From a virus: a DNA stretch of 60,226 bases. The notes beneath the pieces were generated by a model. The model was not told the origin of the DNA. It searched no databases and saw only the letters and a program-made list of their open reading frames with translations. The stretch lies in the IMG/VR virus record IMGVR_UViG_3300045988_163836; one strand, written 5' to 3'. The translations under genes and the position numbers were made by a program. Shown here in pieces: positions 1,220 to 59,162 of the stretch. Numbering within the stretch: position 1 is the stretch's first letter; each line of letters opens with the position of its first letter.

Positions 1220-2378
1220 TATGAGTTATTTATTTACCAGTGAGAGCGTTTTTGCCGGTCACCCTGATAAGGTTTGTGATTAGGTAAGTGATGCTATTCT
1301 GGATTATGTCCTCCAGCTTGACCCTGATGCACGAGTAGCTTGTGAATGTACTATTAGTCCAGGTCTTTTCCACATCATGGGAGAGATTACAGCTAAAACA
1401 GAACAATCTATTCCTTATCAGGAAATTGCAAGAGAGACTTTAAGATTTATTGGTTATGACAATGATGAAGCAGGATTTAACTGCGACACTTGTTCATATA
1501 TTATTAATGTAGTAAATCAATCCCCTGACATCGCTGCGGGTGTCGATAGGGATGGTGCTGGAGATCAAGGCATGATGTTTGGTTATGCAACTAACGAAAC
1601 AGAAAATTATATGCCTATTGCCCAGCAACTTGCTAACAATATCTCGGTCATTATGTTTAGTAAGTATAAAAATGATTTGCTACCTTGGGCATTACCTGAC
1701 GGCAAATGTCAGATAACTGTCCAATACGATGATGATGGCAACTTTGAAGGGGTAGATACAATTGTCGTATCGGCCCAACACAAAGACAAATATAGTATTA
1801 AGGAAATAACACCCGATATTACGAACATTTGTAATATTGCCCTTCAAGGTTATGCCATTAAGAAAGATTGTAAATTTTATATTAACCCAACAGGCAGATT
1901 CGTAATTGGTGGACCTGCGGCTGACATTGGATTAACCGGACGTAAAATCGTCGTAGATACATATGGTGGTTATGCTCCACATGGTGGGGGATGTTTTTCA
2001 GGGAAGTCGCCCTGTAAAGTAGATAGGTCTGGTGCTTATATGGCACGTTATGTAGCTAAAAATCTTGTAGCTTCTGGTGTTTGTGATAAATGTATGATTC
2101 AAGTTGCTTATATTATTGGGCAGACAGAACCTGTATCTATTAATATTAATTGTTTTGGTACAGAAAAGAAACCTATCGCTGAAATTCTTGAAGCAGTTAA
2201 TCAGACATTTGATTTTGCACCGCGTAGTATTATTCATAAATTTGATTTAAAACATACTCGCTATTTACCCTATGCTTGCTTCGGTCATTTTGGTCGTATT
2301 GAATGTAATAGTCCTTGGGAACAGCTTGATAAAGTAGAAGAATTAAAAACAATTTTTGATTTTAAAAAGGAGAACTAA
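1220..2378 (+). CDS. metK: S-adenosylmethionine synthetase (MetK) with an apparent +1 frameshift near 1258-1262
   Basis: It carries the MetK signatures GHPDK-like PDKVCD, GAGDQGMMFGYA and GGGCFSGKSPCKVDRSGAY. The in-frame TAG at 1281 sits exactly at the conserved Gln of CDQ(I/V)SDAILD. The N-terminal motif MSYLFTSESVFAG from ATG 1220 is in a frame one base off from the rest of the protein. The observed ...GCCGGTCAACCCTGATAAG... compares with the expected ...GGTCACCCTGATAAG..., which suggests one extra A. Confidence 0.8.
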
Positions 2379-17908: not shown

Positions 17909-18907
17909 ATGGGTAAAAAAGTTTTAGTTCCTGAGTTTACTGAAAATTGTAGAGGGCTTTTGGAAGGACTATTCAAGATTAGCGAAGTAGGTCTTTTGAA
18001 AGCTCTTGGTGATTTTGTATCTAATAAATATTCTAATGTAGAGATTACAGAAGATTATGTATATGCTGAAGGCAATATTCCTGTTATGCTTATCGCACAT
18101 GTAGATACTGTATTTAGACAGCCAATTCGTCAATTTACTTATAATGAGAAAAGAGCTGTTTATAAAGGCAAGGAAGGTCTTGGAGCAGATGATAGAGCAG
18201 GTGTTTTTGCGATTATTCAGATTTTACGCAAAAAGTATAGACCTTATGTTCTTTTTACAACAGATGAAGAAATGGGTGGCTATGGGGCACATATATTTGT
18301 TGAAGAACATCCAGTAGCTCCAAATATTAAGTACATGATTGAGCTTGATAGAGCTGGTGAAAGAGATTGTGTCTTCTATGAGTGTGAAAATTTTACGTTC
18401 ATGGATTATGTTGAAAGTTTCGGCTTTAAGCAAGCAATTGGATCATTTACAGATATTAGTATTATTATGCCTGAATGGGAAATTGCCGGAGTAAATTTAT
18501 CAGTTGGCTATCATCATGAACATACTCAAAATGAAGATTTGCATATTAGAACATTGTATAATACAATTAATAAAGTATGTAAAATGCTTGATGATATCGA
18601 AAATGCAGATAAATATAAATTTATTCCTAGCAAGGAATATCTTCAGTGGATTACATTAACTAATAAATATCATATGCCTTATGATTTTGATGATGATAAA
18701 CTTCTTAATTGTAGTTTTTGTAATCAGTTATATTATGAGTGGGAAGATTTTCCTCTTGATATTGATGGAGTAAAGGTCCATGTATGTCCTGAATGTTTAG
18801 CACTTGATCCTAATATTCATCAATGTGAAAGATGTTATAATTTATTTTATTCAAATAATATGAAAGAAAGAGTATGTAATAAATGTCGAGTCCCTATTGT
18901 AATTTAA
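17909..18907 (+). CDS. M20/M28/M42-family zinc peptidase-like protein with a C-terminal zinc ribbon
   Basis: Motifs IAHVDTVF, GLGADDRAGV, TTDEEMGG and HHEH. The C-terminus has CxxC...CxxC pairs. Confidence 0.5.
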   Translation: MGKKVLVPEFTENCRGLLEGLFKISEVGLLKALGDFVSNKYSNVEITEDYVYAEGNIPVMLIAHVDTVFRQPIRQFTYNEKRAVYKGKEGLGADDRAGVFAIIQILRKKYRPYVLFTTDEEMGGYGAHIFVEEHPVAPNIKYMIELDRAGERDCVFYECENFTFMDYVESFGFKQAIGSFTDISIIMPEWEIAGVNLSVGYHHEHTQNEDLHIRTLYNTINKVCKMLDDIENADKYKFIPSKEYLQWITLTNKYHMPYDFDDDKLLNCSFCNQLYYEWEDFPLDIDGVKVHVCPECLALDPNIHQCERCYNLFYSNNMKERVCNKCRVPIVI

Positions 18908-18987
18908 ATGAAATTAAAGAACAAGTAAAGAAGGTTATTGCCTATTCATAGGGGCTGGATATTAACCTTTTAAATATTGATAAATTA

Positions 18988-20310
18988 ATGAATGATTGGG
19001 AAGAGAATAAATGCAAATTTTATAGCAGGCTTCCTGGTAATAAATTAATTTATCAAAGCCATGCACCTATTACAATGTCTATTTCAGAAGATGATAAAAA
19101 AGCTGAATTAGATTGTTTTATTGACAACATTCGTTGGCGTTATGGCTTATTTGAATTAAGAGATTTTGTTGAAAATAATAGAAAAGATTTTTATAATAAT
19201 ATTTTAAGCGAAGATTATCCAATGAATAATGGAACTATCATTCCAAAAGGAATGAAAATAATTAAAGCATTTAAATATTTTGTAGAAGATAAGGAAATTC
19301 TTACTGAAATACAAGATAAAGCCAGTATGCTCATTCAGAATACAAAAATTAGTGGATATTTTTGTATGTCAGTTCATCCATTGGATTATCTTAGTTTAAG
19401 TGAAAATACGCATAACTGGCGGTCATGCCATGCACTTGATGGAGAATATCGGGCTGGTAATTTATCTTATATGGCAGATAATTGTACAATTATATGTTAT
19501 ATTAAGAGTGAACATGACGCAGTTTTACCTAGATTTCCAGATGATGTGCCATGGGTGGATAAGAAGTGGCGTATGCTTCTTCATGTGTCTGATGATGATA
19601 CTATGGTTATTTCAGGTCGGCATTATCCTTATGAAAGTAAAGGATTACAAGATTTTGCTCTTGAACTGTATGAAACATTTTTCGGGCAAGGATACCGTTT
19701 TACTGATTGGTGTCATGAAAAATATAATACATTTACAATAAATGATAAAATTTTTTCTAATGAAGTTCGTTTATTGCCTACGGGATACGTAATGACCCCA
19801 GATATTAAGGTTATTGTTGACCCAAAAAATCCTTTGCATTACAATGACCCTCTTCATTCTACTGTATATGACTATTGGTTTAGTATTGCTTATAGTGAAC
19901 CTTATTGGCATGAAGAAGGTATTCCACAAGATAAGTTAATTCTTCCAAGAACTCGTACCACTACTAAAGTTAATATAGGACATGATGTAAAATGCTGTAT
20001 TTGTGGTAAAAATGATTGTGTTTTAACAGATACAATGCTTTGTATTGATTGCGAACTTAAATATGGTACAGAAGAAACAGAAGATTTTACTTTCTGTAGA
20101 GAGTGCGGTAGACGTATTTATATTCCTGAAGCAATATCATTAGATGATGATGATGGTTATGTATGCCGTAGTTGCGGAGACAATTATTAGATATGTGATA
20201 ATTGTAATATGTATTATGATAAAAAAGATTTAATTTATGATGAAGAAAACAATGCTTACTATTGTGAAGCTTGTTATGATGAAATTTTATTTGATAGGGA
20301 GAATGAATAA
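18988..20310 (+). CDS. large paralog-family protein (HPLDY...SC motif, Cys-rich C-terminus)
   Basis: Motif SVHPLDYLSLSENTHNWRSCHALDGEYRAGNLSYMADN. A TAG at 20188 is read as Gln and extends the ORF to TAA 20308, which overlaps the next ATG. Confidence 0.55.
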
Positions 20311-20618
20311 TGGCAAAAGGTAGTATTGCTAAAGATGCTGTTGTAGAAAAAATTGCAGAAGCATTTGGTGAAGATTTCCTCGGATCTTATGATAAAAAGT
20401 ATTATGTGCGAGCTAAAGAAAATGGACAATATATTCAGATTGCAATTAGTTTAACTTGTCCGAAAACTCCTGTGGAAAATTTTGGTTCTATGGATTTTGG
20501 TAATAATGAACTTAATTTTGAAGATGGTGCAACAATTCAGTCTGTAAAGAAGGCTACAGAAATTAGTCCAGAAGAAGAAGAAAATTTAAAAGCTTTAATT
20601 GAAAAGCTTGGTTTATAA
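20310..20618 (+). CDS. hypothetical protein
   Basis: ORF with a terminator downstream. Confidence 0.5.
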   Translation: MAKGSIAKDAVVEKIAEAFGEDFLGSYDKKYYVRAKENGQYIQIAISLTCPKTPVENFGSMDFGNNELNFEDGATIQSVKKATEISPEEEENLKALIEKLGL

Positions 20619-20619
20619 G

Positions 20620-20655
20620 AGAAAGTCAAATTGACTTTCTCTTATTTTTATGTTA
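20620..20655 (+). terminator. rho-independent terminator
   Basis: GAGAAAGTCAAATTGACTTTCTC followed by TTATTTTTA. Confidence 0.6.
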
Positions 20656-20725
20656 TAATTATTTATATAGGGTATATTATATTAATTAAATAATTAAATT
20701 TCTTATATAAGAAAGGAATAAAAAT

Positions 20726-21007
20726 ATGAAGAAGATTATAATTCCTCAAGAAGAAGTAAATTATCTTTAGAAATTAAATTATGAAATTGAAGCTAGAAAA
20801 AATTTATGTCAATTTTTAATTAGACAAAATATTAGAAATAAAGCTTTTGATGATTATCATAATGAGTATATAGAATTATTTGCTGAATATGAATTAGCTA
20901 AATTAGAATTAGAAAATAATTATATCAAACCAGAAATTGGGAATCAAACTTGCAATTGGAATTTAGATTTTTATACAAATGAGGTAATTATTGATGTTAT
21001 TTCCTAA
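20726..21007 (+). CDS. hypothetical protein
   Basis: ATG 20726 follows aaaggaat. One in-frame TAG. The TAA stop overlaps the start of the next gene. Confidence 0.45.
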
Positions 21008-22334
21008 AATAAGCCACATTCCTGAAGAATTTTCTGATTTTATAGGTCGTTTATATCCTGAAGATTGTTTAAATTCTTAGTCCGTATTTACATTAACATT
21101 TTAGGTTACAGATGATTGTTGTTTAAATTGTACTTATTGTTATCAAGGGCATAAAGGTAAACATAAATTATCTTTTGAAACAGCTAAACAGATGATTGAT
21201 TAGATATTAACCAGAGATAATAAAATTATTGGTTATATTGATTCTTATAAAATACCAGGAGTAATAATAGAATTTATAGGTGGAGAGCCATTTTTAGAAA
21301 TTGAATTAATTGATTAGATTACTGATTATTTTATTAATAAAATGATTGAATTGCGGCATCCTTGGGCTACTAAATATAAAATTTCAATTAGTTCTAATGG
21401 TATTTTATATTTTGAACAAAAAGTACAAGAGTATATTAAAAAAAATAATGAAAATTTAAGTTTATCAATTTCTATTGATGGAAATAAAAAATTACATGAC
21501 GCTTGTAGAGTTTTCCCTGATGGTAGTGGTAGTTATGATAAAGCATTGTCTGCCGCATTACATTATAGTCATAATTATAATAAATGGATTGGGAGTAAAA
21601 TGACTATCTCTCCATTTAATATAGATTATTTATATGACGCTGTTTTAGAAATGATAAACAATGGTTATAGTCAAATCAATCTAAATTGTGTGTATGAAAA
21701 AGGTTGGGAACTTAACCATGCCACTACATTATATTATTAGTTAAAAAAAATTGCTGATTATTTATTAAATAATGATTTGTGGGATAAAGTTTATTTATCT
21801 ATTTTTTATATTAATGATGGAAGTAAAAATTTATCTAATGATAATTGGTGTGGCGGGAATGGTCGTATGTTAGCCTTAAATTGGAAAGGTAAATATTATC
21901 CATGTTTACGTTATATGGAAGATAGCATAAGTAATCAGCCAGAATATTATATTGGAGATATTTATTAGGGAATAGGCCAAGATAATTTAACCATCAATAG
22001 ATTAAAAGATTTATCTGAAATAACAGTTATTAGTCAATCTCCTCAAGAATGTTTAGATTGTGAAATTTCTGGAGGATGCTCTTGGTGTACAGCTTATAAT
22101 TATCAAGAAACAGGTAATGTTAATAAAAGAGTTACTTATATTTGTGATATGCATTATGCTACAGTTCTAGCTTCTTTATATTATTTAAATTCTATTTTAA
22201 AAAAAATAAACTCGAATAAACGATTTAAATTTAATGGAGATAGGGAAAAAGCATTAAAAATTATCTCTTAGGATGAATATAATATAATAAAGGAGACAAT
22301 GACAAATGAAAATAGGAACGACAATAACTTCTGA
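20994..22334 (+). CDS. radical SAM / SPASM-domain enzyme
   Basis: CxxxCxxC motif in TDDCCLNCTYCYQGH. Also GGEPFLE and a C-terminal Cys cluster CLDCEISGGCSWCTAYNY...YICDMHY. One frame is continuous through about 8 in-frame TAGs (Gln). It ends at TGA 22332 and overlaps the downstream Cys-rich gene by 29 nt. Confidence 0.7.
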
Positions 22335-22956
22335 TAGATTCAATGAATTAAAGAAAAAAATAAAGGCTGAATGTTTACGTCGTAAATATACCGGTAGTGT
22401 AAGTTCATATGGAGGGACTTCTTATGATTATACTACTTAGCCTGATAATGGAAAAGTTATTTCAAAAGAACACATAACAAAACTGGTAGAACCTATGGCG
22501 GCAATAAATATTGAAAATCAGAATGAAAATATAAATGTTATTAAAGATGATGATTTAAGTACATTAGAGGCAAAAATTACAGCTTATCAAGCTATGGGAT
22601 TAACTGATTCGAATACTGGATGTTCAGCTTATTGCACTGGATTATGTTCTACCAGTTGTAGCGAAAGTTGTGGAGTACAATGTTAGGGAACTTGTTTAGG
22701 TAGTTGTAAGAATACTTGCCAAGGAGGTTGTCAAAACACTTGCAGAGGCGGATGTCGAAGCAGTTGTAGTGGTAGCTGTAGCGGATGTAGTGGTTCTTGC
22801 TCAGGTGGATGCTATACAGGATGTAGTGGATGCAGTGGTAGCTGTACAAGACATTGTGCTAACGATTGTACTGGATTGTGTGGAGGAAGTTGTTCAGGTT
22901 TATGTAAAAGCTGTACTGGCACATGTAGTGGCACAGGTAGAAATGAACCATTATAA
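22306..22956 (+). CDS. Cys-rich repeat protein, a possible substrate of the adjacent radical SAM enzyme
   Basis: 216 aa. The N-terminal roughly 120 aa are ordinary. The C-terminal roughly 95 aa read ...CSAYCTGLCSTSCSESCGVQCQGTCLGSCKNTCQGGCQNTCRGGCRSSCSGSCSGCSGSCSGGCYTGCSGCSGSCTRHCANDCTGLCGGSCSGLCKSCTGTCSGTG. There are 2 in-frame TAGs. Confidence 0.55.
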
Positions 22957-23002: not shown

Positions 23003-23644
23003 ATGTATCTTATACAAGATAATATTTTATTTTGTATAAGTAATTATAAGAATATAAATTTTCAAAAATATAATATGGATATTTAGATTTTATCTGTTTA
23101 TGAATATTTATGTCAAAAATATATTTTACATAAGGATATATTAAAACAATATAAAGGTATAGAATTATATAAAATTATGGAAATTCAAGATAAAATTTTT
23201 ATTAATAGATATAAATTATTATTGTAGATTATTAATAATAATTATAATTTTGATAATTAGTTAATATATACTGATTTTAATAATTTTAATTTTGAACAAA
23301 ATATTAGTTATATAAATTATTGTTTAAAATTGCTATTTAATAATTTTAAAAAAATAGATAAACAATTTTGGAAAATTTTAGATTAGATTTATTTTTTAAT
23401 TAATGGTAAAACTAATTTATTTTTATTGTTGGGAAATTTTTATTTGAATAAAAGTAATTTATAGCAATTTACTGAAGAAATAAAAAAAATTCCTGGAATT
23501 AAAGAATAGCTCTCTTTTAGTTATACAGCTTTAAATTTAGCTATTGAAATTGATAAAGTTGCAGAAAATAAAAATTATCTTAATGAATTAATTGAAATTA
23601 TTGATAATCATTCACAAGAAAAAATTTATAAATTTGATATTTAA
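23003..23644 (+). CDS. hypothetical protein, very AT-rich, with 6 in-frame TAG codons
   Basis: A continuous frame runs from ATG 23003, or from ATG 23075, to TAA 23642 when TAG is read as Gln. A standard-code ORF caller breaks it into short pieces. The start is uncertain. Confidence 0.4.
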
Positions 23645-24561: not shown

Positions 24562-24638
24562 GGGACAGTAGCTTACGAGGTCGGAGCATTGGTCTGAAAA
24601 ACCAAAGGATGGAGGTTCGATACCTCTCTGTCCCACCA
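24562..24638 (+). tRNA. tRNA-Phe (GAA)
   Basis: Acceptor GGGACAG/CTGTCCC. Anticodon arm TTGGT-CTGAAAA-ACCAA. T-arm GGAGG-TTCGATA-CCTCT. A73 and CCA are encoded. Confidence 0.75.
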
Positions 24639-24891
24639 ATTGGTCTTATACATGGGGTTTCCGATTTGAACTAGGTAGATTAGTCACCTACCGTTGGCAA
24701 TAGACCAATTAAAAATAAACTGAGGCAAAGGGAAATCGGGTTTTAATATATATAGCTATAAAGAAATTTTATAGTTAGCTATGATGAACTTCATAGTAAA
24801 ATCCTCTTGTAATCAAGCTAATTGGGAGAGGGGTAGCGCGGGAACGGGGAGAAGCGCGCTATAAAAGGTGAAATACTTCTTTCCACCATAT

Positions 24892-24967
24892 GCCGGTGTA
24901 GCCGAATGGCATAGGCGAATGATTTAGGATCATTAATCTGAAGGTTCGAGTCCTTTCACCGGTACCA
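24892..24967 (+). tRNA. tRNA with anticodon UAG (formally reads CUA, Leu) but a short, class-I variable loop
   Basis: Acceptor GCCGGTG/CACCGGT. D-arm GCC-GAATGGCATA-GGC. Anticodon arm AATGA-TTTAGGA-TCATT. Variable loop AATCT. T-arm GAAGG-TTCGAGT-CCTTT. A73 and CCA. Confidence 0.6.
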
Positions 24968-25051
24968 ATAGTGAAGTAGTAGCTATACTCACTATAATCA
25001 AGGCTCGGTGGTTGGTGGCTCCATCGTTATGTAAATAAGCCATATGTATAT

Positions 25052-25122
25052 TACTTCTTGGTGTAATGGAAGCATGCTGCCTGAAAGAGGCGGAGGTATT
25101 GGTTCAATTCCAATAGAAGGAT
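25052..25122 (+). tRNA. tRNA-like gene with a non-canonical anticodon loop (UGAAAGA)
   Basis: T-arm ATTGG-TTCAATT-CCAAT. Acceptor TACTTCT/AGAAGGA with one mismatch. Anticodon stem CTGCC/GGCGG. The loop has G at position 33. Possibly a degenerate Phe-type tRNA. Confidence 0.3.
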
Positions 25123-25575
25123 TAATTAAAGCTGGGAAATAATAGTCGCCCATAACTAATTATTTAATATAGGACTATTATTAAAGGTTATTTAAGTTAA
25201 AGAAATGCGGTTGAAGTTATTACTTACTTGATTATAAAATAACATGACCGCAAGACGAGTTTATAGTGTGCGTCTATAAATGATCTGCCTATATGTTATC
25301 TTTTTATACTTTCTCTTTGGTTGTTTCTTGACATATAAGTAAAAACGGAAAGGGAGTTAAAGGTTCAGCTAAAAAACTGGTTTGTTTTTTGATAAGGTTT
25401 TAAAAATTAGGTGACAAAATCTTATTTGAGTGACGCTGCTCAGGAGGGTCCGGAACCTCTGAAATGCGATATGCGGTTGTAGCTCAGTCGAAAAAAATAA
25501 ATTTGGACGAAGTGAGCTAATTAATTACTTTTATTTCCTAAATATAATAGAATAAAATAGAAAGAAGGTAATTAA

Positions 25576-26139
25576 TTGCCAAAAGCCTTAGATTTAACGA
25601 ATAAAGTATTTGGAAATTTAAAATGTATTTAGAAAGCTCCTACTAGAAATAAAAAGACTTATTGGGAATGTGAATGTTTATTATGCGGAACTCATAAAAT
25701 TATTTAGACTTGTCATTTAACAGATGGTAGAACTACAAGTTGCGGGTAGCATAATGAAAATAATCTTTTTAATATTAGCAAAGAAAAGCAATGCTTAATT
25801 TGTGGAGAAAAGTTTATAACTAATAATCCTAAAAGAAAATATTGTTTTAATTGTTCTCCAGACAATATATCAGCAGCTGACCGATTAAGACATATCAAAA
25901 GAATTATTAAACATAAATTAATAGTATATAAAGGCGGAAAATGTGAAATTTGTGGTTATGATAAATGTGAAGGAGCTTTATAGTTTCATCATTTAAATCC
26001 GCAAGAAAAAGAATTTACAATTTCTCAAGTAAATTTAAATGAAGGTGAATTTTCTTTTGAAAATTTATTAAAAGAAGTTGATAAATGTTAGTTATTATGT
26101 GCTAATTGTCATGCTGAACAACATTATAAAATTGAATGA
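25576..26139 (+). CDS. HNH homing endonuclease
   Basis: TTG start right after an in-frame TAA. The N-terminal module LTNKVFGNLKCIQ...WECECLLCG...TSCGQ matches the repeats of the 7750 gene. HNH motif CEICGYDKCEGALQFHHLNP...N...LLCANCHAEQH. There are 5 in-frame TAGs, each codon checked against the 60-nt line boundaries. TGA 26137 overlaps the tRNA-Lys 5' end. Confidence 0.7.
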
Positions 26140-26212
26140 TGGTGTGGCCTAGTGGTAAGGCACCTGCCTTTTAAGCAGGGTACCGAGGGTTCAAATCCCT
26201 CCACCATCACCA
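26138..26212 (+). tRNA. tRNA-Lys (UUU)
   Basis: Acceptor GATGGTG/CACCATC. D-arm GCC-TAGTGGTAA-GGC. Anticodon arm CCTGC-CTTTTAA-GCAGG. T-arm GAGGG-TTCAAAT-CCCTC. A73 and CCA. Confidence 0.75.
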
Positions 26213-26780
26213 GGTCAAGTTTGAGAAATTTCATAAAGCATCGCTGACGTTAAATGGCACTTATATGAAAACGCGTAAGTAATATAAGATAGCAAAATTC
26301 TCGTAGTTCATCCTATTAGAGAATCTTAAAGAGTAATGGCAAGATCATATTGCGGGAGACCGTGCGTATGAGATACCAATAAAGGTAGCACATCTTGTGT
26401 TGAACAAGATAAAAGATGGAAAGGATACCTGCCATGTTTGGACAGCAAAAGAAGGCGTTGAATGTAATCGAAAAACATTCCGTTGGTTCTTAGGGGAGCG
26501 ACGTAACAGTGAAACCCGAGGTTTGAGTTACCTTGTCCAAACGCTATGTATAGTCAAAGTCTAGGCAACAAGGCTTTAATTAGAGTTAAAATTGTTTTAA
26601 TTAAACTCATACTTGTGGAAATCAAGCAGATCCACTTTACTGGGCCTACTGTAAAAGCCAGTTTGATATAGCCTCCATACCCAATGAGGAATTTTTATAA
26701 AAGTCTATTTAATTTTTCTTGGCAGTTTAATTAAGTAGACTATATGCGGGATTAGCTCAGCTGGTTAGAGCGTTTGGTTT

Positions 26781-27260
26781 ACTCGGCAAACTCTTTTAAT
26801 TTCTATTTTATGACACGAAATTCTAAAGAAGTCGGTAATTTAGCAGAATTACAATGTATTACTGGTCTTTATGAACTGGGATGTGATATTTCATTTCCTT
26901 TTGGAAATAGTCAAAAGTATGATTTAATTATGGATTATAAAGGTAAACTTTATAAAGTTCAAGTTAAACATGCTAAAGATGAATATACATTAGGAGAAAT
27001 TACACATTTTTCTTTTGCTACGAGATGGCAAAGTCATAATACGACTGGTTATAAAAAAACTCCATACACAAAAAATGATATTGATTTTTTCGCTACTTAT
27101 CACCAAGGAAAAGTTTATTTAATTCCTGTTGAAGAATGTAGCGGAGCTACTAAATCTATTCGTTATACCCCCCCTAAAAATGGACAACGAATTGGTATTA
27201 ATTTTGCTCAAGATTATTTGGCGGAGGAGGTGTTGAAGAAATTGTAAGAGCATTGCTAAG
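26781..27260 (+). other. intervening sequence in a tRNA anticodon loop (not group I), carrying a PD-(D/E)XK ORF
   Basis: About 480 nt, almost all of it ORF 26810..27247. This is too short for a group I core. Its termini form a helix stacked on the anticodon stem. Confidence 0.5.
26810..27247 (+). CDS. PD-(D/E)XK-fold nuclease-like protein encoded in a tRNA insertion (paralog 1 of 3)
   Basis: MTRNSKEVGNLAELQCITGLYELGCDISFPFGNSQKYDLIMDYKGKLYKVQVKHA has the motif D-x(n)-(D/E)-x-K. It aligns along its full length with the ORFs at 56076..56519 and 57052..57477. Confidence 0.6.
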   Translation: MTRNSKEVGNLAELQCITGLYELGCDISFPFGNSQKYDLIMDYKGKLYKVQVKHAKDEYTLGEITHFSFATRWQSHNTTGYKKTPYTKNDIDFFATYHQGKVYLIPVEECSGATKSIRYTPPKNGQRIGINFAQDYLAEEVLKKL

Positions 27261-27307
27261 TAATCCAAGAGGTCATTGGTTCGAATCCAATATCCTGCAC
27301 CAATAAA

Positions 27308-27347
27308 TTTGAAAATTTAAAAAAAATATTATATAATATATATATAA
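27308..27347 (+). promoter_or_regulatory. phage promoter consensus copy
   Basis: TTGAAAATTTAAAAAAAATATTATATAATATATATATAAT, followed by an RBS and ATG 27368. Confidence 0.5.
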
Positions 27348-27367
27348 TAATAAAGGAGATATTTGAA

Positions 27368-27535
27368 ATGGCAACTACTAAAAAACCTGCAATTAAAATG
27401 GATAATACAGAGTTGAACGAGTATCTTCTGTTTCGTCGTCGTAGATCTATTGTGCCTGCCAAGAAAGGTAAGGGTATGGAATATGATAGGGCGAAAGAAA
27501 AAGAGAAATCTGAAAAAATGATTTCTGATGAATAA
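27368..27535 (+). CDS. small basic protein (55 aa)
   Basis: RBS aaaggaga lies upstream. Lys/Arg-rich. The TAA stop abuts tRNA-Glu. Confidence 0.35.
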   Translation: MATTKKPAIKMDNTELNEYLLFRRRRSIVPAKKGKGMEYDRAKEKEKSEKMISDE

Positions 27536-27537
27536 AT

Positions 27538-27614
27538 CGGCGCATAGACAAATAGGTATAGTCACTACCCTTTCAAGGTAGAATGTAGGGGTTCGATCCC
27601 CCTTGCGCTGACCA
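27538..27614 (+). tRNA. tRNA-Glu (UUC)
   Basis: Acceptor CGGCGCA/TGCGCTG with one G.U pair. Anticodon arm CTACC-CTTTCAA-GGTAG. T-arm AGGGG-TTCGATC-CCCCT. A73 and CCA. Confidence 0.65.
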
Positions 27615-27619
27615 TTTAT

Positions 27620-27695
27620 GGTGCTGTAGTTTAGTTGGAAGAATGCCAGCCTGTCACGCTGGAGGTCATGGGGTCAGGACCCATCAGCATCGCCA
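27620..27695 (+). tRNA. tRNA-Asp (GUC)
   Basis: Acceptor GGTGCTG/CAGCATC with one G.U pair. Anticodon arm CCAGC-CTGTCAC-GCTGG. G73 and CCA. The T-loop GTCAGGA is atypical. Confidence 0.55.
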
Positions 27696-27726
27696 TTCGC
27701 TTTCCCGATATAAGCGATTTTGAAAC

Positions 27727-27787
27727 ATAGAACTTGATAGAGCGTTCTATTAATCTGATTAGATTAAGTTTTATAACTATCATATTT
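27727..27787 (+). repeat. 65-70-nt repeat directly upstream of a tRNA (copy 1)
   Basis: catagaacttgatagagcgttctattaatctgat...tagattaagttttataactatcatatttgg is about 90% identical to 28815..28882. It contains the hairpin ATAGAAC...GTTCTAT. Confidence 0.5.
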
Positions 27788-27863
27788 GGGGCACGGGACT
27801 GCATGGAGTGGTCGTCTCCCTTGCAAGGAGAAAAGCAGATGAGTTCGATTCTCATGTGTTCCA
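27788..27863 (+). tRNA. tRNA-Ala (UGC)
   Basis: Acceptor GGGGCAC/GTGTTCC with two G.U pairs. D-stem GACT/GGTC. Anticodon arm TCTCC-CTTGCAA-GGAGA. T-arm ATGAG-TTCGATT-CTCAT. A73. No CCA is encoded. Confidence 0.55.
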
Positions 27864-27995
27864 GTCATCTAATATTCACAACCGCCACGAGGTAGATGAT
27901 GGGTAATGCTAATAGTGGATAAAACGAAAATCGGGCAAAGCAAGTTAAACTCCTTAAAGTTTTTATCAAATATAGTAGAAAAGGAGTTGAATTAA

Positions 27996-28628
27996 ATGCC
28001 TAAAAAATTAACTCAAGAAGAATTTGAGCAAAGAGTTTATGAATGCGTTGGAGATAAATATTCTGTTATAAGCGAATATAATGGAAAATCTAAACCAATA
28101 GATTTAAAGTGTAATATTCATAACATTATATTTCAAGTATCGGCAGAGTGTTTTATGCGAGGTCCAAAAGAAATAAGATGTTCTTGTCCTAAATGTTCAG
28201 AAGAAAAGAAAAATGAAAAATTTTCTATAAATAGAACAGAATTAGAATGTGCTTATTGCGGAAGAAAATTTATTCGTTCAAATTCTAAATTAAATAATTC
28301 AAAAAGTGGAATATATTTTTGTTGTAGAGAACATAAAGATTTGGCTCAAAGAATAGATTTCGGATTAAAAGAAATTCAGCCAAATCATTATGGAAATGCT
28401 GTTGAAAATATTCATAACTATCGTAAAAATGCTTTTCGATATTATTCTCATAAATGTGCAGTCTGTGATTGGAATGAAGATGAAGATATCTTAGAAGTTC
28501 ATCATATTGATGAAAATCGAGATCATAATGAACTATCTAATTTAATTATTCTTTGTCCTATATGTCATAGAAAACTTAGTTCACATAAATATAAATTGAT
28601 TGATAGAGAACAAATTGTTCTTTGTTAA
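27996..28628 (+). CDS. HNH homing endonuclease
   Basis: Motif EVHHIDENRDHNELSNLIILCPICH. N-terminal Cys/His clusters. No in-frame TAG. Free-standing between tRNAs. Confidence 0.7.
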   Translation: MPKKLTQEEFEQRVYECVGDKYSVISEYNGKSKPIDLKCNIHNIIFQVSAECFMRGPKEIRCSCPKCSEEKKNEKFSINRTELECAYCGRKFIRSNSKLNNSKSGIYFCCREHKDLAQRIDFGLKEIQPNHYGNAVENIHNYRKNAFRYYSHKCAVCDWNEDEDILEVHHIDENRDHNELSNLIILCPICHRKLSSHKYKLIDREQIVLC

Positions 28629-28702
28629 TAAATAGTGTGATATATTCCAAACACGTAGGGTGGTAAGCACACGGGTTTTCTAGAAGCCTTCCCTATGAAC
28701 AT

Positions 28703-28778
28703 GGATGCATAGCTCAGTTGGTAGAGCAATTGACTGTTAATCAATGGGTCGGAGGATCATACCCTTCTGCATCCGCCA
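28703..28778 (+). tRNA. tRNA-Asn (GUU)
   Basis: Acceptor GGATGCA/TGCATCC. D-arm GCTC-AGTTGGTA-GAGC. Anticodon arm ATTGA-CTGTTAA-TCAAT. T-arm GGAGG-ATCATAC-CCTTC. G73 and CCA. Confidence 0.7.
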
Positions 28779-28814
28779 CCGCACTTGCGGAAAACATACA
28801 ACTCAACTGGTGCA

Positions 28815-28882
28815 TAGAACTTGATGGAGCGTTCTATTAGTCTGATGCCTGCATTAGATTAAGTTTTATAACCATCATACTT
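28815..28882 (+). repeat. 65-70-nt repeat directly upstream of a tRNA (copy 2)
   Basis: catagaacttgatggagcgttctattagtctgatgcctgcattagattaagttttataaccatcatacttgg. See 27727..27787. Confidence 0.5.
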
Positions 28883-28956
28883 GGGGACATAGTTTATGGT
28901 AGGAAAACGTTGAATTTAATTCAAAGTCGAGGGTGCGATTCCCTCTGGCTCCACCA
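28883..28956 (+). tRNA. tRNA-like gene with an atypical anticodon arm (TTGAA-TTTAA-TTCAA). A 7-nt loop reading gives anticodon UUA, which would read UAA
   Basis: Acceptor GGGGACA/TGGCTCC with one A.G mismatch. D-arm GTTT-ATGGTAGGA-AAAC. T-arm GAGGG-TGCGATT-CCCTC. A73 and CCA. The anticodon hairpin has either a 5-bp stem with a 5-nt loop, or a 4-bp stem with loop ATTTAAT. Confidence 0.35.
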
Positions 28957-29089
28957 TTTATGAAAGACAATACAGCAATTATACATTTGCTTTGGGAGCC
29001 GTGTGTTATAGGTTCGAGTCCTATTGTTTGGTCGAAGACCGAATATAGCGTAATTGGTAGCGCAACGTATAAAATTGTCTTGTTAATAT

Positions 29090-29162
29090 TGCGGGATCGT
29101 CAAGTGGTTAAGACACCAGCCTCATAAACTGGTTATCGTGGGTTCGAATCCCACTCCCGCAA
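29090..29162 (+). tRNA. tRNA-Met or tRNA-Ile2 (CAU)
   Basis: Acceptor TGCGGGA/TCCCGCA. D-arm GTC-AAGTGGTTAA-GAC. Anticodon arm CCAGC-CTCATAA-ACTGG with a C.A pair at 31:39. T-arm GTGGG-TTCGAAT-CCCAC. A73. No CCA. Confidence 0.6.
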
Positions 29163-29289
29163 GAGATACATTAATCAAGCCTCCACGGGGCGTATCTTGG
29201 GTAATGCTAATTGATTAAAAAATTTTTGGTCGCGGAAAATTAATTTTGCAACCAAAATTTCCATAATATTATGGAGGAGATAATAATTA

Positions 29290-29939
29290 TGGCTTATATT
29301 TATTAGATAACAAATAATATTAATGGAAAAATTTATGTTGGTAAAACATTAAAAAATAATATTTAGGAACGTTGGAAAGAACATTTAAGAGATTATAAAA
29401 AATCTAAATATGAAAAACGTCCTTTATATAACGCAATAAATAAATATGGTCCAGAAAATTTTTCTATTAAGGAATTAGAAGAATGTTCTGCTGAAGAAGC
29501 TAGCGAAAAAGAAATTTATTGGATTGAGAAATTAAACTCTTTTAAATATGGATATAATGCTACTAAAGGAGGAGATGGCAAGATAAAATATGACCATCAA
29601 AAAATTTTAGAAGCATTAAGAATAAATCCACGTCCAATTGAAATAGCTAAATTATTTAATTGTAGTTGTGATTTAGTTCAATAGATAGCTAAAGAACACC
29701 AAATTTAGATAATTAATCAAAGTAATGAATAGATGAAAAAAGAAAAATCCAAAAGTATTAGGCAATATAATAAAAATGGAATATTAATTAATACTTTTGA
29801 TTCTGTAGCAGAAGCTGGACAATGGTGTTTTGAAAATAAAAAATGTCTAAATTATAATTCTGGAGTTAGAAGTCATATTGCTGAATGTGCAAATGGAAAA
29901 CGTAAAACAGCATATGGTTATATCTGGAAATATATATGA
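29290..29939 (+). pseudogene. GIY-YIG homing endonuclease, frameshifted (1-nt shorter T-run near 29467-29470)
   Basis: MAYIYQITNNINGKIYVGKT...ERWKEH is the GIY-YIG motif. The paralog at 54788 reads ...GAAAATTTTTCTATT... with 5 T. This copy has 4 T. That splits the protein between the 29290 frame and the frame of ORF 29733..29939, which carries the C-terminal domain. Confidence 0.6.
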
Positions 29940-30066
29940 TTTATATGAAAAGCCCATACAGCAACTTTTAATAGGATAAATAAGAAATTCTGCAAAAATT
30001 TTTTAGAGTTGGTTCAAATCCAGCAAATGATTTTAGGGTTTTGTTAAAATTGTTAAGGAGAAAATA

Positions 30067-30252
30067 ATGAAGTTTAATCCAGGAGACAAGGTCTGGTGCA
30101 AGAGATATGGTAAGGGTAAGTGCCGCAAGGCTGATAATAAGGATAATTTTATGACTTATCTTTTCAGATTTTATGATGGCACTTTAATTTGGATGTCAAA
30201 ATATCAGGCTGAACATTTTGTAAAAGTTCGTTCCACCGAGGCCACGGTGTGA
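30067..30252 (+). CDS. hypothetical small protein
   Basis: RBS aaggagaaaa lies upstream. Confidence 0.4.
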   Translation: MKFNPGDKVWCKRYGKGKCRKADNKDNFMTYLFRFYDGTLIWMSKYQAEHFVKVRSTEATV

Positions 30253-30411
30253 ATATAAAGTCCGGTTATAGGAAATCCTGTCATTAGGCAGCAGGCTACC
30301 GGTAATCCTTTCTTATATATTTAAATATGTAAGGAACAAAAACTATACAATAGATAGAGTTTTTACGCCTTGGCGCAATGCTTGTTTTTTACTATCTATT
30401 TTTTTATATTT

Positions 30412-30498
30412 GGAGTCGTGGGATAATGGTATTCCAATGGATTGCTAATCCATCCTACCTCTTAGGTAGTCCGCGTTCGAGTCGCGGCGATTCCGCCA
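30412..30498 (+). tRNA. tRNA-Ser (GCU)
   Basis: Acceptor GGAGTCG/CGATTCC. Anticodon arm ATGGA-TTGCTAA-TCCAT. Long variable arm CCTACC-TCT-TAGGTAG. T-arm CCGCG-TTCGAGT-CGCGG. G73 and CCA. Confidence 0.75.
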
Positions 30499-30501
30499 TA
30501 T

Positions 30502-32516: not shown

Positions 32517-32519
32517 TCT

Positions 32520-33035: not shown

Positions 33036-33057
33036 TTTTATAGGAGGAAAATGATTT

Positions 33058-34278: not shown

Positions 34279-34301
34279 TTTTGAAGGAGGAATAATATAA
34301 T

Positions 34302-59087: not shown

Positions 59088-59162
59088 TCCGGCTTTGGGT
59101 AACGGTTAGCTCAGCTGACTCTAAATCAGCAAGTCTCAGTTCGACTCTGAGAGCCGGTGCCA
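59088..59162 (+). tRNA. amber suppressor tRNA (anticodon CUA), Gln-type
   Basis: Acceptor TCCGGCT/AGCCGGT with a 1:72 mismatch. D-arm GGGT-AACGGTTA-GCTC. Anticodon arm GCTGA-CTCTAAA-TCAGC, so anticodon CUA. T-arm CTCAG-TTCGACT-CTGAG. Discriminator G73 and a weak 1:72 pair are GlnRS identity features. CCA is encoded. Confidence 0.7.

What the first reader, a model, noticed from the sequence alone, without database searches (positions are those of the whole stretch)
20994..22956. Radical SAM/SPASM enzyme translationally coupled to a protein with a 95-residue CxxxC-repeat tail (RiPP-like pair)
The rSAM gene (CxxxCxxC plus a C-terminal auxiliary Cys cluster) overlaps by 29 nt the start of a 216-aa protein. 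The C-terminal half of that protein is an almost pure run of C-x2-3-C repeats with about 30 Cys. This pairing is characteristic of sactipeptide or ranthipeptide-type maturases, which install thioether crosslinks, and their Cys-rich substrates. Here the substrate is unusually long and the pair sits in a recoded phage. The Cys-rich protein could instead be a metal-binding or structural protein.
Basis: partly seen in the sequence, partly recalled or inferred. Interest (0 to 1): 0.8.

Follow-up and report, generated by a model that had tools for sequence, protein, structure and literature searches.

The report
Phage radical-SAM kit for cysteine-repeat protein
A gut phage that reads the TAG stop codon as an amino acid carries a catalogued but experimentally untested gene set, in which an iron-sulfur radical enzyme most likely crosslinks a protein tail of 27 evenly spaced cysteines; related phages suggest the product belongs to the tail-fibre apparatus and is not a secreted antibiotic.

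Summary
With TAG read as Gln, 20994-22334 encodes a 446-aa radical SAM/SPASM enzyme. It overlaps by 29 nt a 216-aa protein (22306-22956) whose last 102 residues hold 27 Cys, 23 of 26 spacings being CxxxC.

The pair is not new in kind. The enzyme scores 431 bits on NCBIfam TIGR04115, "radical SAM peptide maturase, CXXX-repeat target family" (cutoff 350). The target matches TIGR04114/PF27846. In some lineages it is fused to the enzyme's N-terminus, where CteB has its peptide-recognition domain.

The closest characterised relatives (PapB, SCIFF/CteB, QhpD) all form Cys thioethers, so thioether laddering of the tail is the best guess. It is untested.

Three further points emerged here:
- The system is phage-borne.
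- It is usually abutted to tail-fibre genes, and it swaps with virion-protein genes in the slot between fibre and lysin. In one homologue the target is fused to a tail-fibre domain.
- In this window it carries late-gene-like TAG density.

The phage also encodes MetK and a second, aromatic-repeat rSAM cassette.

Verdict: a new member of a known but uncharacterised kind, with an interesting virion-protein reading.

The parts
20615..20645 (+). Terminator-like hairpin closing the upstream gene (20310-20618). It marks the 5' boundary of the cassette.
   Evidence: 14-bp stem followed by a T run. Only 2 terminator-like sites were found in 4.6 kb, and 1.1 are expected by chance, so this is suggestive only.
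20631..20659 (+). Promoter-like site, TTGACT-17-TATAAT with TG, 67 nt upstream of the first cassette gene.
   Evidence: 11 of 12 matches. Promoter-like sites are not enriched over shuffles in this AT-rich region (33 found against 35.7 expected), so this is weak evidence.
20726..21007 (+). Small partner protein 's' (93 aa, 1 in-frame TAG), the third component of the system. It overlaps the rSAM start by 14 nt.
20994..22334 (+). Radical SAM/SPASM maturase (446 aa, 7 in-frame TAG codons, stop TGA).
   Evidence: TIGR04115 at 431.3 bits against a cutoff of 350. Pfam Radical_SAM and Fer4_12 are above their cutoffs. phrog_1802 at 1e-63. CX3CX2C and 7 invariant SPASM Cys. CteB 5WGG at E 5.8e-21, aligned to CteB residues 94-438, so the N-terminal RRE of CteB is absent.
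22306..22620 (+). Target protein, conserved N-terminal helical domain (residues 1-105).
   Evidence: E22, R25 and R26 are invariant. K16, G30, Y35, E55, K59 and P63 are at least 90% conserved in 48 homologues. AF2 pLDDT is 85-94 for residues 8-100, with four helices. There is no PDB fold match; the best E-value is 5. One BFVD relative was found.
22621..22956 (+). Target protein, CxxxC-repeat tail (C106-C207, 27 Cys) plus a 9-residue C-terminus and the stop codon. This is the presumed site of modification.
   Evidence: TIGR04114 at 20.6 bits against a cutoff of 20. Homologues carry PF27846, tSAM_targ_Cxxx_rpt. Across the family the spacing is 85% CxxxC and 12% CxxC, with Gly at x2 in 47%. AF2 pLDDT is below 50, so the unmodified tail is predicted disordered.
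23074..23644 (+). Downstream ORF (189 aa from ATG 23074; an earlier ATG lies at 22943; 6 TAGs counted from 22943). Its membership in the cassette is uncertain.
   Evidence: It is homologous to the ORF that follows the target in the closest related locus, L032 (E 2.4e-24). It is not detectably related to the 'x' gene found between target and small protein in 57 of 85 loci. It has no Pfam, NCBIfam or PHROG hit.
59088..59162 (+). Suppressor tRNA (anticodon CTA), needed to translate all cassette genes.
   Evidence: ARAGORN. TAG density is 16.1 per 1000 codons in the cassette. It is 1.8 in the 1-20.6 kb region and 11.5 in the tail-fibre region.
1221..2378 (+). Phage-encoded S-adenosylmethionine synthetase (MetK), a likely SAM supply for the four rSAM enzymes in the window. 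It is a supporting part and is not in the cassette.
   Evidence: All three Pfam S-AdoMet_synt domains match, at E 9.5e-59, 2.3e-35 and 8.5e-34.

Best explanation
This is a phage copy of the three-gene CXXX-repeat radical SAM maturation system: small partner protein at 20726-21007, rSAM/SPASM enzyme at 20994-22334, and target at 22306-22956.

Proposed mechanism:
1. The genes are translated only once the phage's TAG-suppressor tRNA is active, that is, late in infection and together with the structural genes.
2. The small protein takes the place of the missing N-terminal recognition domain and presents the target. It probably does this by binding the target's folded 100-residue N-domain.
3. The enzyme cleaves SAM to a 5'-deoxyadenosyl radical and abstracts hydrogens along the disordered CxxxC tail. 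It joins cysteine sulfurs to nearby carbon atoms as thioether bridges, as its relatives PapB, CteB and QhpD do.
4. The floppy 102-residue tail becomes a covalently laddered segment that is insensitive to reduction.
5. The product stays attached to its N-domain, because the cluster has no protease or exporter. It most likely serves as an accessory or distal component of the tail-fibre apparatus.

Shown here: family membership, the three-gene architecture, the fusion, conservation of the periodic Cys pattern, TAG density like that of the structural-gene region, and the tail-fibre genomic context in relatives.

Inferred: that the tail is the substrate, that the chemistry is thioether formation, and that the product is in the virion.
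For: Membership:
- TIGR04115 at 431 bits (cutoff 350) and TIGR04114 at 20.6 (cutoff 20).
- PF27846 on homologues.

Architecture:
- rSAM and small protein are each present in 81 of 85 loci.
- Gene orders are T-x-s-R, s-R-T or fused sR-T.
- The small protein is fused at the position where CteB has its RRE.

Chemistry lead:
- The next-best families are all Cys-thioether formers: PapB 162 bits, SCIFF 108, QhpD 84.
- CteB is the closest solved structure.
- All seven SPASM Cys are invariant.

Substrate:
- The CxxxC register is kept without DNA-level repeats.
- The tail is predicted disordered and the N-domain folded.

Late expression:
- TAG density is 16.1 per 1000 codons, against 1.8 in the 1-20.6 kb region and 11.5 in the fibre region.
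- Recoded stops mark late or lytic genes according to bioRxiv 10.1101/2021.08.26.457843, whose title and abstract were retrieved.

Virion link:
- In 15 of 29 rSAM lineages, a tail-fibre-like gene ends within 50 nt of the cassette. In about 20 lineages one lies within 4 kb. One family hits phrog_7037, tail fiber, at 1.4e-36.
- Among 45 near-identical phages, the cassette alternates with genes hitting 'virion structural protein' PHROGs in the slot between the tail fibre (phrog_5073, 1.4e-86) and the endolysin. Its presence goes with an extra LLWIDT...KY..G..W C-terminus on the fibre.
- Homologue P0209 is a target fused to a domain shared with the window's own ALK_LTK_GRD tail-fibre protein (52% identity over 48 aa, E 7e-14). 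It sits in a normal cassette.

SAM supply: the phage encodes MetK.
Against: - No modification has been observed for any member of this family. Six full-text searches aimed at the system, its family names or phage-encoded radical SAM peptide systems found nothing.
- PapB-type acceptors are missing. PapB links Cys to Asp or Glu located C-terminal to it (PMC12373016), but this tail has 1 Asp and 1 Glu. The acceptor atom is therefore unknown.
- The small protein does not have an RRE fold and the window copy has no NCBIfam hit.
- In this window the cassette is not next to the fibre genes. It lies about 8.5 kb upstream of them, behind a tRNA array. It looks like its own transcription unit.
- The cassette is dispensable among near-identical phages. 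That fits an accessory cargo gene as well as a swappable fibre module.
- The N-domain matches no known virion protein fold.
- No cultured phage carries the target. Only one of 50,697 GenBank phage records has it, and that is an unannotated faecal contig. No virion proteome can be consulted.
Confidence: 0.55

Rival explanations
1. The cassette is cargo (a 'moron'). In this reading the modified Cys-rich protein is a RiPP-like antimicrobial or signalling product, released when the host lyses. The 100-residue N-domain acts as an oversized leader, as in Nif11/NHLP-type precursors. The position next to tail-fibre and lysis genes merely reflects a common insertion hot spot.
For: - The enzyme's relatives are RiPP maturases.
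- The cassette is present in only about 14 of 45 near-identical phages, so it is dispensable.
- In the window it has its own terminator-like and promoter-like sites and is not adjacent to the fibre genes.
- Release by lysis would make an exporter unnecessary.
Against: - No protease, exporter or immunity gene is conserved with the cassette.
- The modified region is 50-230 residues with 13-57 Cys, far longer than the cores of the characterised relatives PapA and SCIFF (the size comparison rests on general knowledge).
- The target is often translationally abutted (4-50 nt) to a tail-fibre gene.
- It replaces virion-protein genes instead of being added to them, and it co-varies with the fibre's C-terminus.
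- In P0209 the target is fused to a tail-fibre domain.
- TAG density matches the structural genes.
Confidence: 0.22
2. The enzyme does act on the tail, but the chemistry is not thioether bridging. One possibility is oxidation of Cys C-beta to formylglycine or a thioaldehyde, as in anaerobic sulfatase maturases. Others are epimerisation, methylation or C-C coupling. Alternatively, the Cys tail mainly binds metal or Fe-S clusters, like a metallothionein.
For: - anSME is a detectable relative: TIGR03942 at 64.7 bits over the full length.
- Acidic acceptors of the PapB type are lacking.
- A CxxxC/CxxC-rich Gly/Ser sequence resembles metal-binding proteins.
- The SPASM scaffold supports many chemistries (general knowledge of the superfamily).
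Against: - Every family scoring above about 80 bits (PapB, SCIFF, CcpM, the ScfB-related family, QhpD) is a Cys-peptide maturase. Those that have been characterised make thioethers.
- anSME scores far below its cutoff of 349.
- A pure metal-binding role would not explain why an rSAM and a small partner are co-inherited with the target in 81 of 85 loci and fused or overlapping with it.
Confidence: 0.18
3. The Cys-rich ORF is not a real gene, for example an off-frame or chance ORF, or the TAG codons are true stops so that the enzyme is a pseudogene.
For: Under the standard code both genes are broken into fragments. Another Cys-rich frame exists in the window at about 36017.
Against: - A suppressor tRNA is present.
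- TAG positions align with Gln in homologues, and the sequence after TAG426 is conserved.
- There are hundreds of conserved homologues with an intact N-domain.
- The frame at 36017 is full of stops, whereas this one is open.
Confidence: 0.01

Closest known systems
CXXX-repeat radical SAM peptide modification system (NCBIfam TIGR04115 maturase, TIGR04114 / Pfam PF27846 target repeat, TIGR04116 accessory protein)
   Same: The enzyme scores above the curated cutoff. The target has the every-fourth-residue Cys repeat. A roughly 95-aa accessory protein is encoded alongside. The three genes are adjacent.
   Different: As far as I could find, the family is defined only computationally, and no chemistry or function has been published. 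The window's accessory protein is too diverged to hit TIGR04116 itself. The phage and tail-fibre context, the conserved 100-aa N-domain of the target, the fourth gene 'x' in most loci, and TAG recoding are not part of the family definition as I recall it.
PapB/PapA (freyrasin) ranthipeptide system
   Same: It is an rSAM/SPASM enzyme and the second-best NCBIfam match (162 bits, full-length alignment). Its substrate has several repeated C-x3-X motifs. It forms thioethers from Cys sulfur.
   Different: The score is below the PapB cutoff of 340. PapB uses an RRE and a short leader, and it needs Asp or Glu C-terminal to the Cys (PMC12373016). Here there is no RRE, position i+4 is another Cys, and the tail has only 2 acidic residues. 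The substrate is a 216-aa protein, not a short peptide.
CteB/CteA and other SCIFF (six-Cys-in-forty-five) maturases
   Same: CteB is the closest solved structure (5WGG, E 5.8e-21). The rSAM core and SPASM domain align over 360 residues. The substrate is Cys-rich.
   Different: The score is 108 bits against a cutoff of 425. CteB's N-terminal recognition domain (residues 1-93) has no counterpart in this enzyme. A separate, or in some lineages fused, beta-alpha-alpha-beta-beta protein sits there instead.
QhpD/QhpC (quinohemoprotein amine dehydrogenase gamma subunit maturation)
   Same: An rSAM/SPASM enzyme installs several Cys thioether crosslinks in a protein that remains a structural subunit and is not released as a peptide natural product. 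This is the best functional analogy for a crosslinked virion protein.
   Different: The score is only 84 bits against a cutoff of 453. QhpC crosslinks go to Asp or Glu (general knowledge). It has no repeat periodicity and no phage context.
Three-residue cyclophane ('triceptide') rSAM systems (XyeB, YhhB, GrrM/OscB, FxsB)
   Same: These are SPASM maturases acting on short periodic motifs repeated many times in one precursor. The window's second cassette (about 44950-50275) has an aromatic-every-fourth-residue target and weak hits to YhhB, XyeB and CbpB.
   Different: For the CxxxC enzyme these families score only 36-64 bits. The repeated residue is Cys, not Trp, Tyr, Phe or His.

Membership tests
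CXXX-repeat rSAM system (TIGR04115/04114/04116) | The maturase scores above the curated TIGR04115 cutoff over the whole model. | tested here: met
   431.3 bits against a cutoff of 350. Residues 33-397 cover model positions 3-359 of 359.
CXXX-repeat rSAM system (TIGR04115/04114/04116) | The target protein has tandem four-residue repeats with an invariant Cys (TIGR04114 / PF27846). | tested here: met
   TIGR04114 at 20.6 bits against a cutoff of 20. 23 of 26 Cys spacings are CxxxC. Most homologues carry PF27846 in the precomputed annotation. The local Pfam copy lacks that model.
CXXX-repeat rSAM system (TIGR04115/04114/04116) | A small accessory protein (TIGR04116) is present. | tested here: inconclusive
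   The window's 93-aa protein has no NCBIfam hit at E<=0.01. It does belong to an HMM-defined family present in 81 of 85 loci. One member of that family, from L058, matches TIGR04116 over positions 3-88 of 90 at E 3.7e-4 and 20.6 bits, below the cutoff of 50.
CXXX-repeat rSAM system (TIGR04115/04114/04116) | The three genes form one cassette. | tested here: met
   The order is s-R-T, with overlaps of 14 and 29 nt. The same trio occurs in 81 of 85 related loci.
Radical SAM / SPASM subgroup | A CX3CX2C motif for the SAM cluster, plus a seven-Cys C-terminal motif for two auxiliary [4Fe-4S] clusters. | tested here: met
   C42/C46/C49 and C286, C304, C353, C356, C362, C365, C384 are all 100% conserved in 28 lineages. 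Pfam Radical_SAM scores 29.7 (cutoff 29.5). Pfam SPASM scores only 16.0 (cutoff 21.5). Cluster binding itself cannot be tested here.
Ranthipeptide maturases (PapB family, NF047865) | Score above the family cutoff; RRE-mediated leader recognition; Cys linked to an Asp or Glu located C-terminal to it. | tested here: not met
   162 bits against a cutoff of 340. No N-terminal RRE. Only 1 Asp and 1 Glu in the tail. PapB's requirements are taken from PMC12373016.
SCIFF maturases (TIGR03974) | Score above the cutoff; a roughly 45-aa SCIFF precursor; an N-terminal recognition domain. | tested here: not met
   108 bits against a cutoff of 425. The target is 216 aa. The alignment to CteB starts at CteB residue 94.
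Sactipeptide maturases (AlbA, SkfB, RumMC types) | Sequence membership and a short precursor with a Cys-rich N-terminal half. | tested here: not met
   RumMC scores 56.7 bits against a cutoff of 720. SkfB 6EFN has E 2.9e-4 on a partial stretch only.
Anaerobic sulfatase maturase (TIGR03942) | Score above the cutoff; a sulfatase substrate with a C/S-x-P-x-R motif. | tested here: not met
   64.7 bits against a cutoff of 349. The target sequence contains no C/S-x-P-x-R motif, as read directly from the translation.
Classical RiPP cluster | A RiPP recognition element (PqqD-like wHTH) in the enzyme or in a partner protein. | tested here: not met
Classical RiPP cluster | A leader protease and/or an exporter is encoded with the precursor. 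| tested here: not met
   No such gene is conserved next to the cassette across 29 lineages. An M28-type peptidase lies two genes upstream in the window (17909-18907), but it lies upstream of the terminator-like hairpin. I did not check whether it recurs beside the cassette in other loci.
Any thioether-crosslinked peptide or protein | S-C crosslinks are actually present in the mature product. | not testable with these tools
   This needs anaerobic co-expression and mass spectrometry or NMR.
Phage tail-fibre / virion component | The protein is physically present in particles. | not testable with these tools
   The evidence is contextual only: adjacency to fibre genes, the module swap, the fusion P0209 and late-type TAG density. 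No cultured phage carries the target.

The most novel reading that the evidence does not exclude
The CxxxC protein is a distal tail-fibre or receptor-binding accessory of phages that infect strictly anaerobic gut Firmicutes. A phage radical SAM enzyme turns its tail into a ladder of thioether rings. This would be a redox-proof substitute for disulfides in a virion protein made in, and released into, a reducing environment. It would be the first enzyme-installed radical SAM crosslink in a virus particle.

It would also be one instance of a wider design. The same phage carries a second fibre-adjacent cassette: three rSAM enzymes (one fused to a GT2 glycosyltransferase) next to a protein with a folded N-domain and an aromatic residue every fourth position. 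This suggests a class of 'four-residue-periodic, rSAM-matured' phage fibre appendages.
Probability: 0.35. Interest if true: 0.85.

Novelty: new member of a known kind. Interest (0 to 1): 0.6.

Why it matters
The CXXX-repeat rSAM system appears in NCBIfam and now Pfam, but I could find no chemistry or biology for it.

This window and its relatives give it a concrete setting. It is overwhelmingly phage-borne. In the window it has late-gene-like TAG density. It sits in the host-range slot of the tail module and comes with a dedicated partner protein that replaces the usual recognition domain.

If the product is a thioether-laddered fibre component, RiPP-type radical chemistry would reach beyond small natural products into virus structural biology. 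It would show how phages of anaerobes stabilise extracellular proteins without disulfides. It would also offer a genetically encoded way to make long, regularly crosslinked polypeptides.

Even if the product turns out to be a lysis-released peptide, the very long repeat substrate and the non-RRE partner protein are good targets for enzymology. Either way, the needed experiment is simple and well defined.

Tried and rejected
- **Standard-code reading.** It breaks both genes. Rejected in favour of TAG=Gln.
- **Literature.** Searches for CXXX repeat, TIGR04115, PF27846, phage plus SPASM/ranthipeptide, and related terms found nothing on this system. Haft & Basu 2011 and Hudson 2019 are not held in the library. 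The preprint on phage biosynthetic gene clusters and a rSAM-RiPP review do not mention it.
- **First tblastn of the window target against GenBank phages.** It gave no match. This was a false negative, because MT835573 does carry a diverged cassette. That 'no match' is not counted as evidence of absence.
- **Fourth gene 'x'.** It is found in 57 of 85 loci, but no homology to the window's downstream ORF could be shown (hmmsearch E about 1, hhalign probability 0.2%).
- **Homology between the two substrate N-domains in the window.** BLAST gave nothing and hhalign gave probability 5.7%. Not established.
- **Extra domains fused to targets** (P0138, P0209, P0221, P0241, P0127). Pfam and PHROG searches found nothing apart from one PHROG family of unknown function for P0241. 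My by-eye reading of them as carbohydrate-binding modules is therefore dropped. Only the P0209 to tail-fibre similarity is kept.
- **Genome scan.** With the large alignment it failed. With the small alignment it used one narrow pattern and found only 4 loci. It says little about how common the system is in bacterial genomes.
- **A second Cys-rich stretch at about 36017.** It is an off-frame artefact.
Full report
**1. What is in the sequence**

The window is AT-rich (31% GC). It encodes 14 tRNAs, one of which has anticodon CTA (59088-59162). Under the standard code the region 20994-22956 falls into fragments. With TAG read as a sense codon it gives two long ORFs.

The reassignment is real:
- Of the seven in-frame TAGs of the first ORF, codon 37 aligns with Gln in 22 of 27 homologues and codon 249 in 13 of 27.
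- The 21 residues after the last TAG (codon 426) are conserved to the very end with the closest related locus, L032, which has Lys at that position.

The first ORF, 20994-22334, therefore encodes 446 aa and ends at TGA. The second, 22306-22956, encodes 216 aa, has an AAGGAG 10 nt before its ATG, and overlaps the first by exactly 29 nt.

The second protein has a normal-looking N-terminal 105 residues. After that come 27 Cys between C106 and C207, with 23 CxxxC and 3 CxxC spacings. None of 100,000 shuffles of the tail reaches 23 CxxxC pairs; the maximum was 15. There is almost no DNA-level tandem repeat, so the register is maintained by selection on the protein. The only other Cys-rich stretch in the window is an off-frame artefact.

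**2. What the enzyme is**

The Pfam hits are Radical_SAM and Fer4_12 above their cutoffs, and SPASM below its cutoff.

NCBIfam places the enzyme in TIGR04115, "radical SAM peptide maturase, CXXX-repeat target family". It scores 431 bits against a curated cutoff of 350 and covers the whole model. All other families are far below their own cutoffs: PapB 162/340, SCIFF maturase 108/425, CcpM 101/500, QhpD 84/453, anSME 65/349.

An alignment of 28 lineages shows the CX3CX2C triad and seven further Cys (C286, C304, C353, C356, C362, C365, C384) all invariant. That is a complete SPASM pattern.

The closest solved structure is CteB, the SCIFF thioether synthase (5WGG, E 5.8e-21). The alignment begins at CteB residue 94, so the N-terminal peptide-recognition domain of CteB has no counterpart here.

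It does not.

**3. What the Cys-rich protein is**

It hits TIGR04114, the CXXX repeat, at the cutoff (20.6 against 20) and phrog_6085, a family of unknown function.

Counts of relatives:

| Search | Result |
|---|---|
| 5.8-billion-protein set, 90% clusters | 574 with E<=1e-3 |
| Same set | most of the 120 listed homologues carry PF27846, "tSAM_targ_Cxxx_rpt" |
| Profile search, 50%-identity representatives | 223 with E<=1e-30; 882 with E<=1e-10 |

The homologues share a well-conserved N-domain (consensus ..RF..LKA.VKAEC.RR.YTGSV..YGG..YDY...P..G..I..EHY.K...PLNAIN), then "TGC.ASCTGLC", then a tail of variable length with 13 to 57 Cys. Spacing is 85% CxxxC and 12% CxxC. Gly dominates the middle position.

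AlphaFold2 with a 48-sequence alignment gives a confident four-helix N-domain (pLDDT 85-94). The tail is predicted disordered, with pLDDT below 50. The N-domain has no match in the PDB and one relative among predicted viral structures.

**4. A third component, and often a fourth**

Just upstream, 20726-21007 encodes a 93-aa protein that overlaps the enzyme's start by 14 nt.

I collected 80 loci from IMG/VR by their relatedness to the target protein (127 relatives were found), plus loci from ENA and Logan contigs. An iterated HMM finds this small protein in 81 of 85 loci, always beside the enzyme. In six loci it is fused to the enzyme's N-terminus, exactly where CteB has its recognition domain.

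One member matches TIGR04116, "CXXX repeat peptide modification system protein", over the full model but below the cutoff (E 3.7e-4). The window's copy is too diverged to hit it.

Gene orders are T-x-s-R (most loci), s-R-T (the window and eight other loci) or fused sR-T. The fourth gene, "x", encodes a 146-216-aa protein and is present in 57 of 85 loci. The window instead has an unrelated ORF (23074-23644) after the target. That ORF is conserved with L032 only.

**5. Context in the window**

A 14-bp-stem terminator-like hairpin (20615-20645) and an 11/12 promoter-like site (20631-20659) precede the small gene. This is weak evidence, since such sites are not enriched over chance in this region.

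TAG codons per 1000 codons:

| Region | TAG per 1000 codons |
|---|---|
| Cassette | 16.1 |
| Twenty-one genes of 1-20.6 kb | 1.8 |
| Tail-fibre region, 31.4-54.6 kb | 11.5 |

Recoded stops are reported to mark late and lytic genes in such phages (bioRxiv 10.1101/2021.08.26.457843, retrieved; a statement to this effect also appears in PMC10607447). TAG-to-Gln translation has been validated by metaproteomics (PMC9523058, abstract retrieved). I therefore infer late expression, together with the structural genes.

The phage also encodes a complete SAM synthetase at 1221-2378. That is sensible for a genome with four rSAM enzymes in 60 kb.

**6. Context in relatives: the tail-fibre link**

I clustered the enzymes at 70% identity, which gives 29 lineages.
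- In 15 lineages, the gene ending within 50 nt of the cassette belongs to one of two tail-fibre-like families. In about 20 lineages, such a gene lies within 4 kb.
- One family hits phrog_7037, "tail fiber protein", at 1.4e-36, and weakly the Peptidase_G2 intramolecular-chaperone domain.
- The other family is collagen-like and ends in a shared motif, GT.AP..T.LLWIDT....GGLKYYNGS.W..VPVA.

A sharper test used 45 IMG/VR contigs of essentially one phage species. Their 635-aa virion protein is 87-100% identical.
- Fourteen carry T-x-s-R between the tail fibre (phrog_5073, 1.4e-86) and the holin and endolysin.
- About 25 with enough flanking sequence do not.
- In those that do, the fibre has an extra C-terminal segment ending in the LLWIDT motif.
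- In those that do not, the fibre stops earlier. The slot then holds one to three other genes that hit "virion structural protein" or Hoc-like PHROGs.

So the cassette behaves as one interchangeable option in the distal-fibre slot. It is also dispensable.

One family member, P0209, carries a 175-aa N-terminal extension. The last 48 residues of that extension are 52% identical (E 7e-14) to the N-terminal domain of the window's own tail-fibre protein, which contains an ALK_LTK_GRD domain (41454-43928). P0209 sits in an otherwise normal cassette on two contigs.

Hosts, where named, are anaerobic gut Firmicutes: Gemmiger formicilis DFI.6.10 (a prophage with T-x-s-R), plus Ruminococcus, Clostridia and Mollicutes MAGs. 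No cultured phage in GenBank carries the target. The only record that does is an unannotated human-faecal contig, MT835573.

**7. Mechanism proposed**

Shown here:
- family membership;
- the three-gene unit;
- fusion of the partner protein at the RRE position;
- an intact SAM cluster and SPASM Cys set;
- a conserved periodic Cys tail that is disordered before modification;
- late-type codon usage;
- the fibre-slot context.

Inferred:
- The partner protein and enzyme bind the folded N-domain and work along the tail.
- Each turnover uses one SAM and joins a Cys sulfur to a neighbouring carbon, as in PapB, CteB and QhpD.
- The product is a covalently laddered, reduction-proof segment that stays on its N-domain. 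It functions on the virion, probably at or near the fibre tip.

The acceptor atom is unknown. PapB requires Asp or Glu C-terminal to the Cys (PMC12373016). This tail has one of each, so the chemistry cannot simply be PapB's.

My confidence in each step:

| Step | Confidence |
|---|---|
| The tail is the enzyme's substrate | about 0.85 |
| The modification is thioether formation | about 0.55 |
| The product is virion- or fibre-associated | about 0.5 |

**8. Rivals**

- **Lysis-released RiPP-like cargo.** This remains possible. The cassette is dispensable, and in this window it is a separate unit 8.5 kb from the fibre genes. Against it: there is no protease, exporter or immunity gene; the modified region is very long; the cassette substitutes for virion genes; and there is the P0209 fusion.
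- **Different chemistry, or mere metal binding.** This cannot be excluded without mass spectrometry.
- **Non-gene artefact.** Excluded.

**9. Comparison and novelty**

As a type of system this is already catalogued (TIGR04114/04115/04116, PF27846), so the window holds a new member of a known kind.

It is not a member of the ranthipeptide (PapB), SCIFF, sactipeptide or anSME families by their curated cutoffs. It also lacks their recognition domain. It probably works like them.

What seems not to be documented, at least in the 8-million-paper library searched here, is that the system is phage-borne and associated with the tail-fibre module. I also found no published chemistry or function for it.

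Interest is moderate to high. The base finding is known. The virion-crosslink reading would surprise both RiPP and phage specialists, and one co-expression experiment would test it.

Noticed in passing
window about 44950-50275 (+), with accessory genes to about 54570: A second radical SAM cassette lies just after a small tail-fibre-like ORF.
- An rSAM fused to a GT2 glycosyltransferase. The ORF reads through from about 44950. The ATG at 45177 that my ORF finder picked is internal. A CNLQCNNC motif lies upstream of it.
- A 171-aa putative substrate (46936-47451). It has a conserved 105-aa N-domain and a Ser/Tyr/Asp/Gly/His/Trp tail. Homologues show an aromatic residue every fourth position (GSYDGSYDGGYRGSYDGSYRGSYD).
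- Two more rSAM enzymes (47418-48905 and 48905-50275).
- A GT8-like gene (52279-52914).

The same gene order occurs in a 200-kb contig (L089), after a 1218-aa ALK_LTK_GRD/Laminin_G_3 fibre-like protein. Only 7 homologue clusters of the substrate were found. It looks like a YxxxY counterpart of the CxxxC system, possibly of the cyclophane type..
   Followed up: partly
window 44098-44532 (+); also the C-termini of fibre proteins in L003, L005, L007, L016, L065, L068, L075 and others: About ten lineages of tail-fibre-like proteins that directly precede CXXX cassettes share a C-terminal motif, GT.AP..T.LLWIDT....GGLKYYNGS.W..VPVA. In the window it occurs once, just upstream of the second rSAM cassette and not the first. 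In cassette-less relatives of L092, a similar string (GATPPSDTTKLWV) opens the next gene instead. Its role is unknown; it may be an adaptor or docking element..
   Followed up: partly
window 1221-2378 (+): A phage-encoded S-adenosylmethionine synthetase (MetK). All three Pfam domains match strongly. The gene has a single in-frame TAG and lies in the TAG-poor region..
   Followed up: yes
whole window; tRNA-CTA at 59088-59162: TAG is reassigned, to Gln judging from alignments. The density of in-frame TAG falls into two classes: 1.8 per 1000 codons in 1-20.6 kb, against 8-16 elsewhere. The CXXX cassette is the most TAG-dense block, at 16.1..
   Followed up: yes
window 24562-30587 (+): An array of 11 tRNA genes is interspersed with small ORFs and a GIY-YIG endonuclease gene (29271-29939). 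A second, similar GIY-YIG-like ORF lies at 54788-55423, next to tRNA-Thr; its N-terminus, MAYIYQIINNINGKIYVGKT, is nearly the same..
   Followed up: no
window 31443-44532 (+): A long run of tail-fibre-like genes. Several share the N-terminus MA(D/E)(K/I)..N.RI.....T..W, which hits tail-fibre and hyaluronidase PHROGs. One 824-aa member (41454-43928) has an ALK/LTK glycine-rich domain (E 2.4e-46). Its N-terminal domain is shared with the fused target protein P0209..
   Followed up: partly
proteins P0127-P0132, P0172, P0178, P0212: Giant proteins of 1380-1803 aa contain several hundred residues of CxxxC repeats, opening with the same GC.A.C.GLC motif. In P0127 the repeats follow about 940 residues with no Pfam or PHROG hit. 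Their genomic context, and whether an rSAM accompanies them, was not examined..
   Followed up: no
window 17909-18907 and 18883-20310 (+): An M28-type peptidase with C-terminal zinc-ribbon-like CxxC pairs. It is followed by a 475-aa protein (phrog_18912, unknown function) that also ends in multiple CxxC pairs. Both lie just upstream of the cassette, on the far side of the terminator-like hairpin. No link to the cassette was established..
   Followed up: no
GenBank phages SPN3US-like, Erwinia jumbo phages, Campylobacter phages: About 100 cultured jumbo phages encode rSAM/SPASM proteins that are 25% identical to the window enzyme over more than 80% of its length. They are annotated only as 'radical SAM superfamily protein'. 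Whether they have repeat-type targets nearby was not checked.
   Followed up: no
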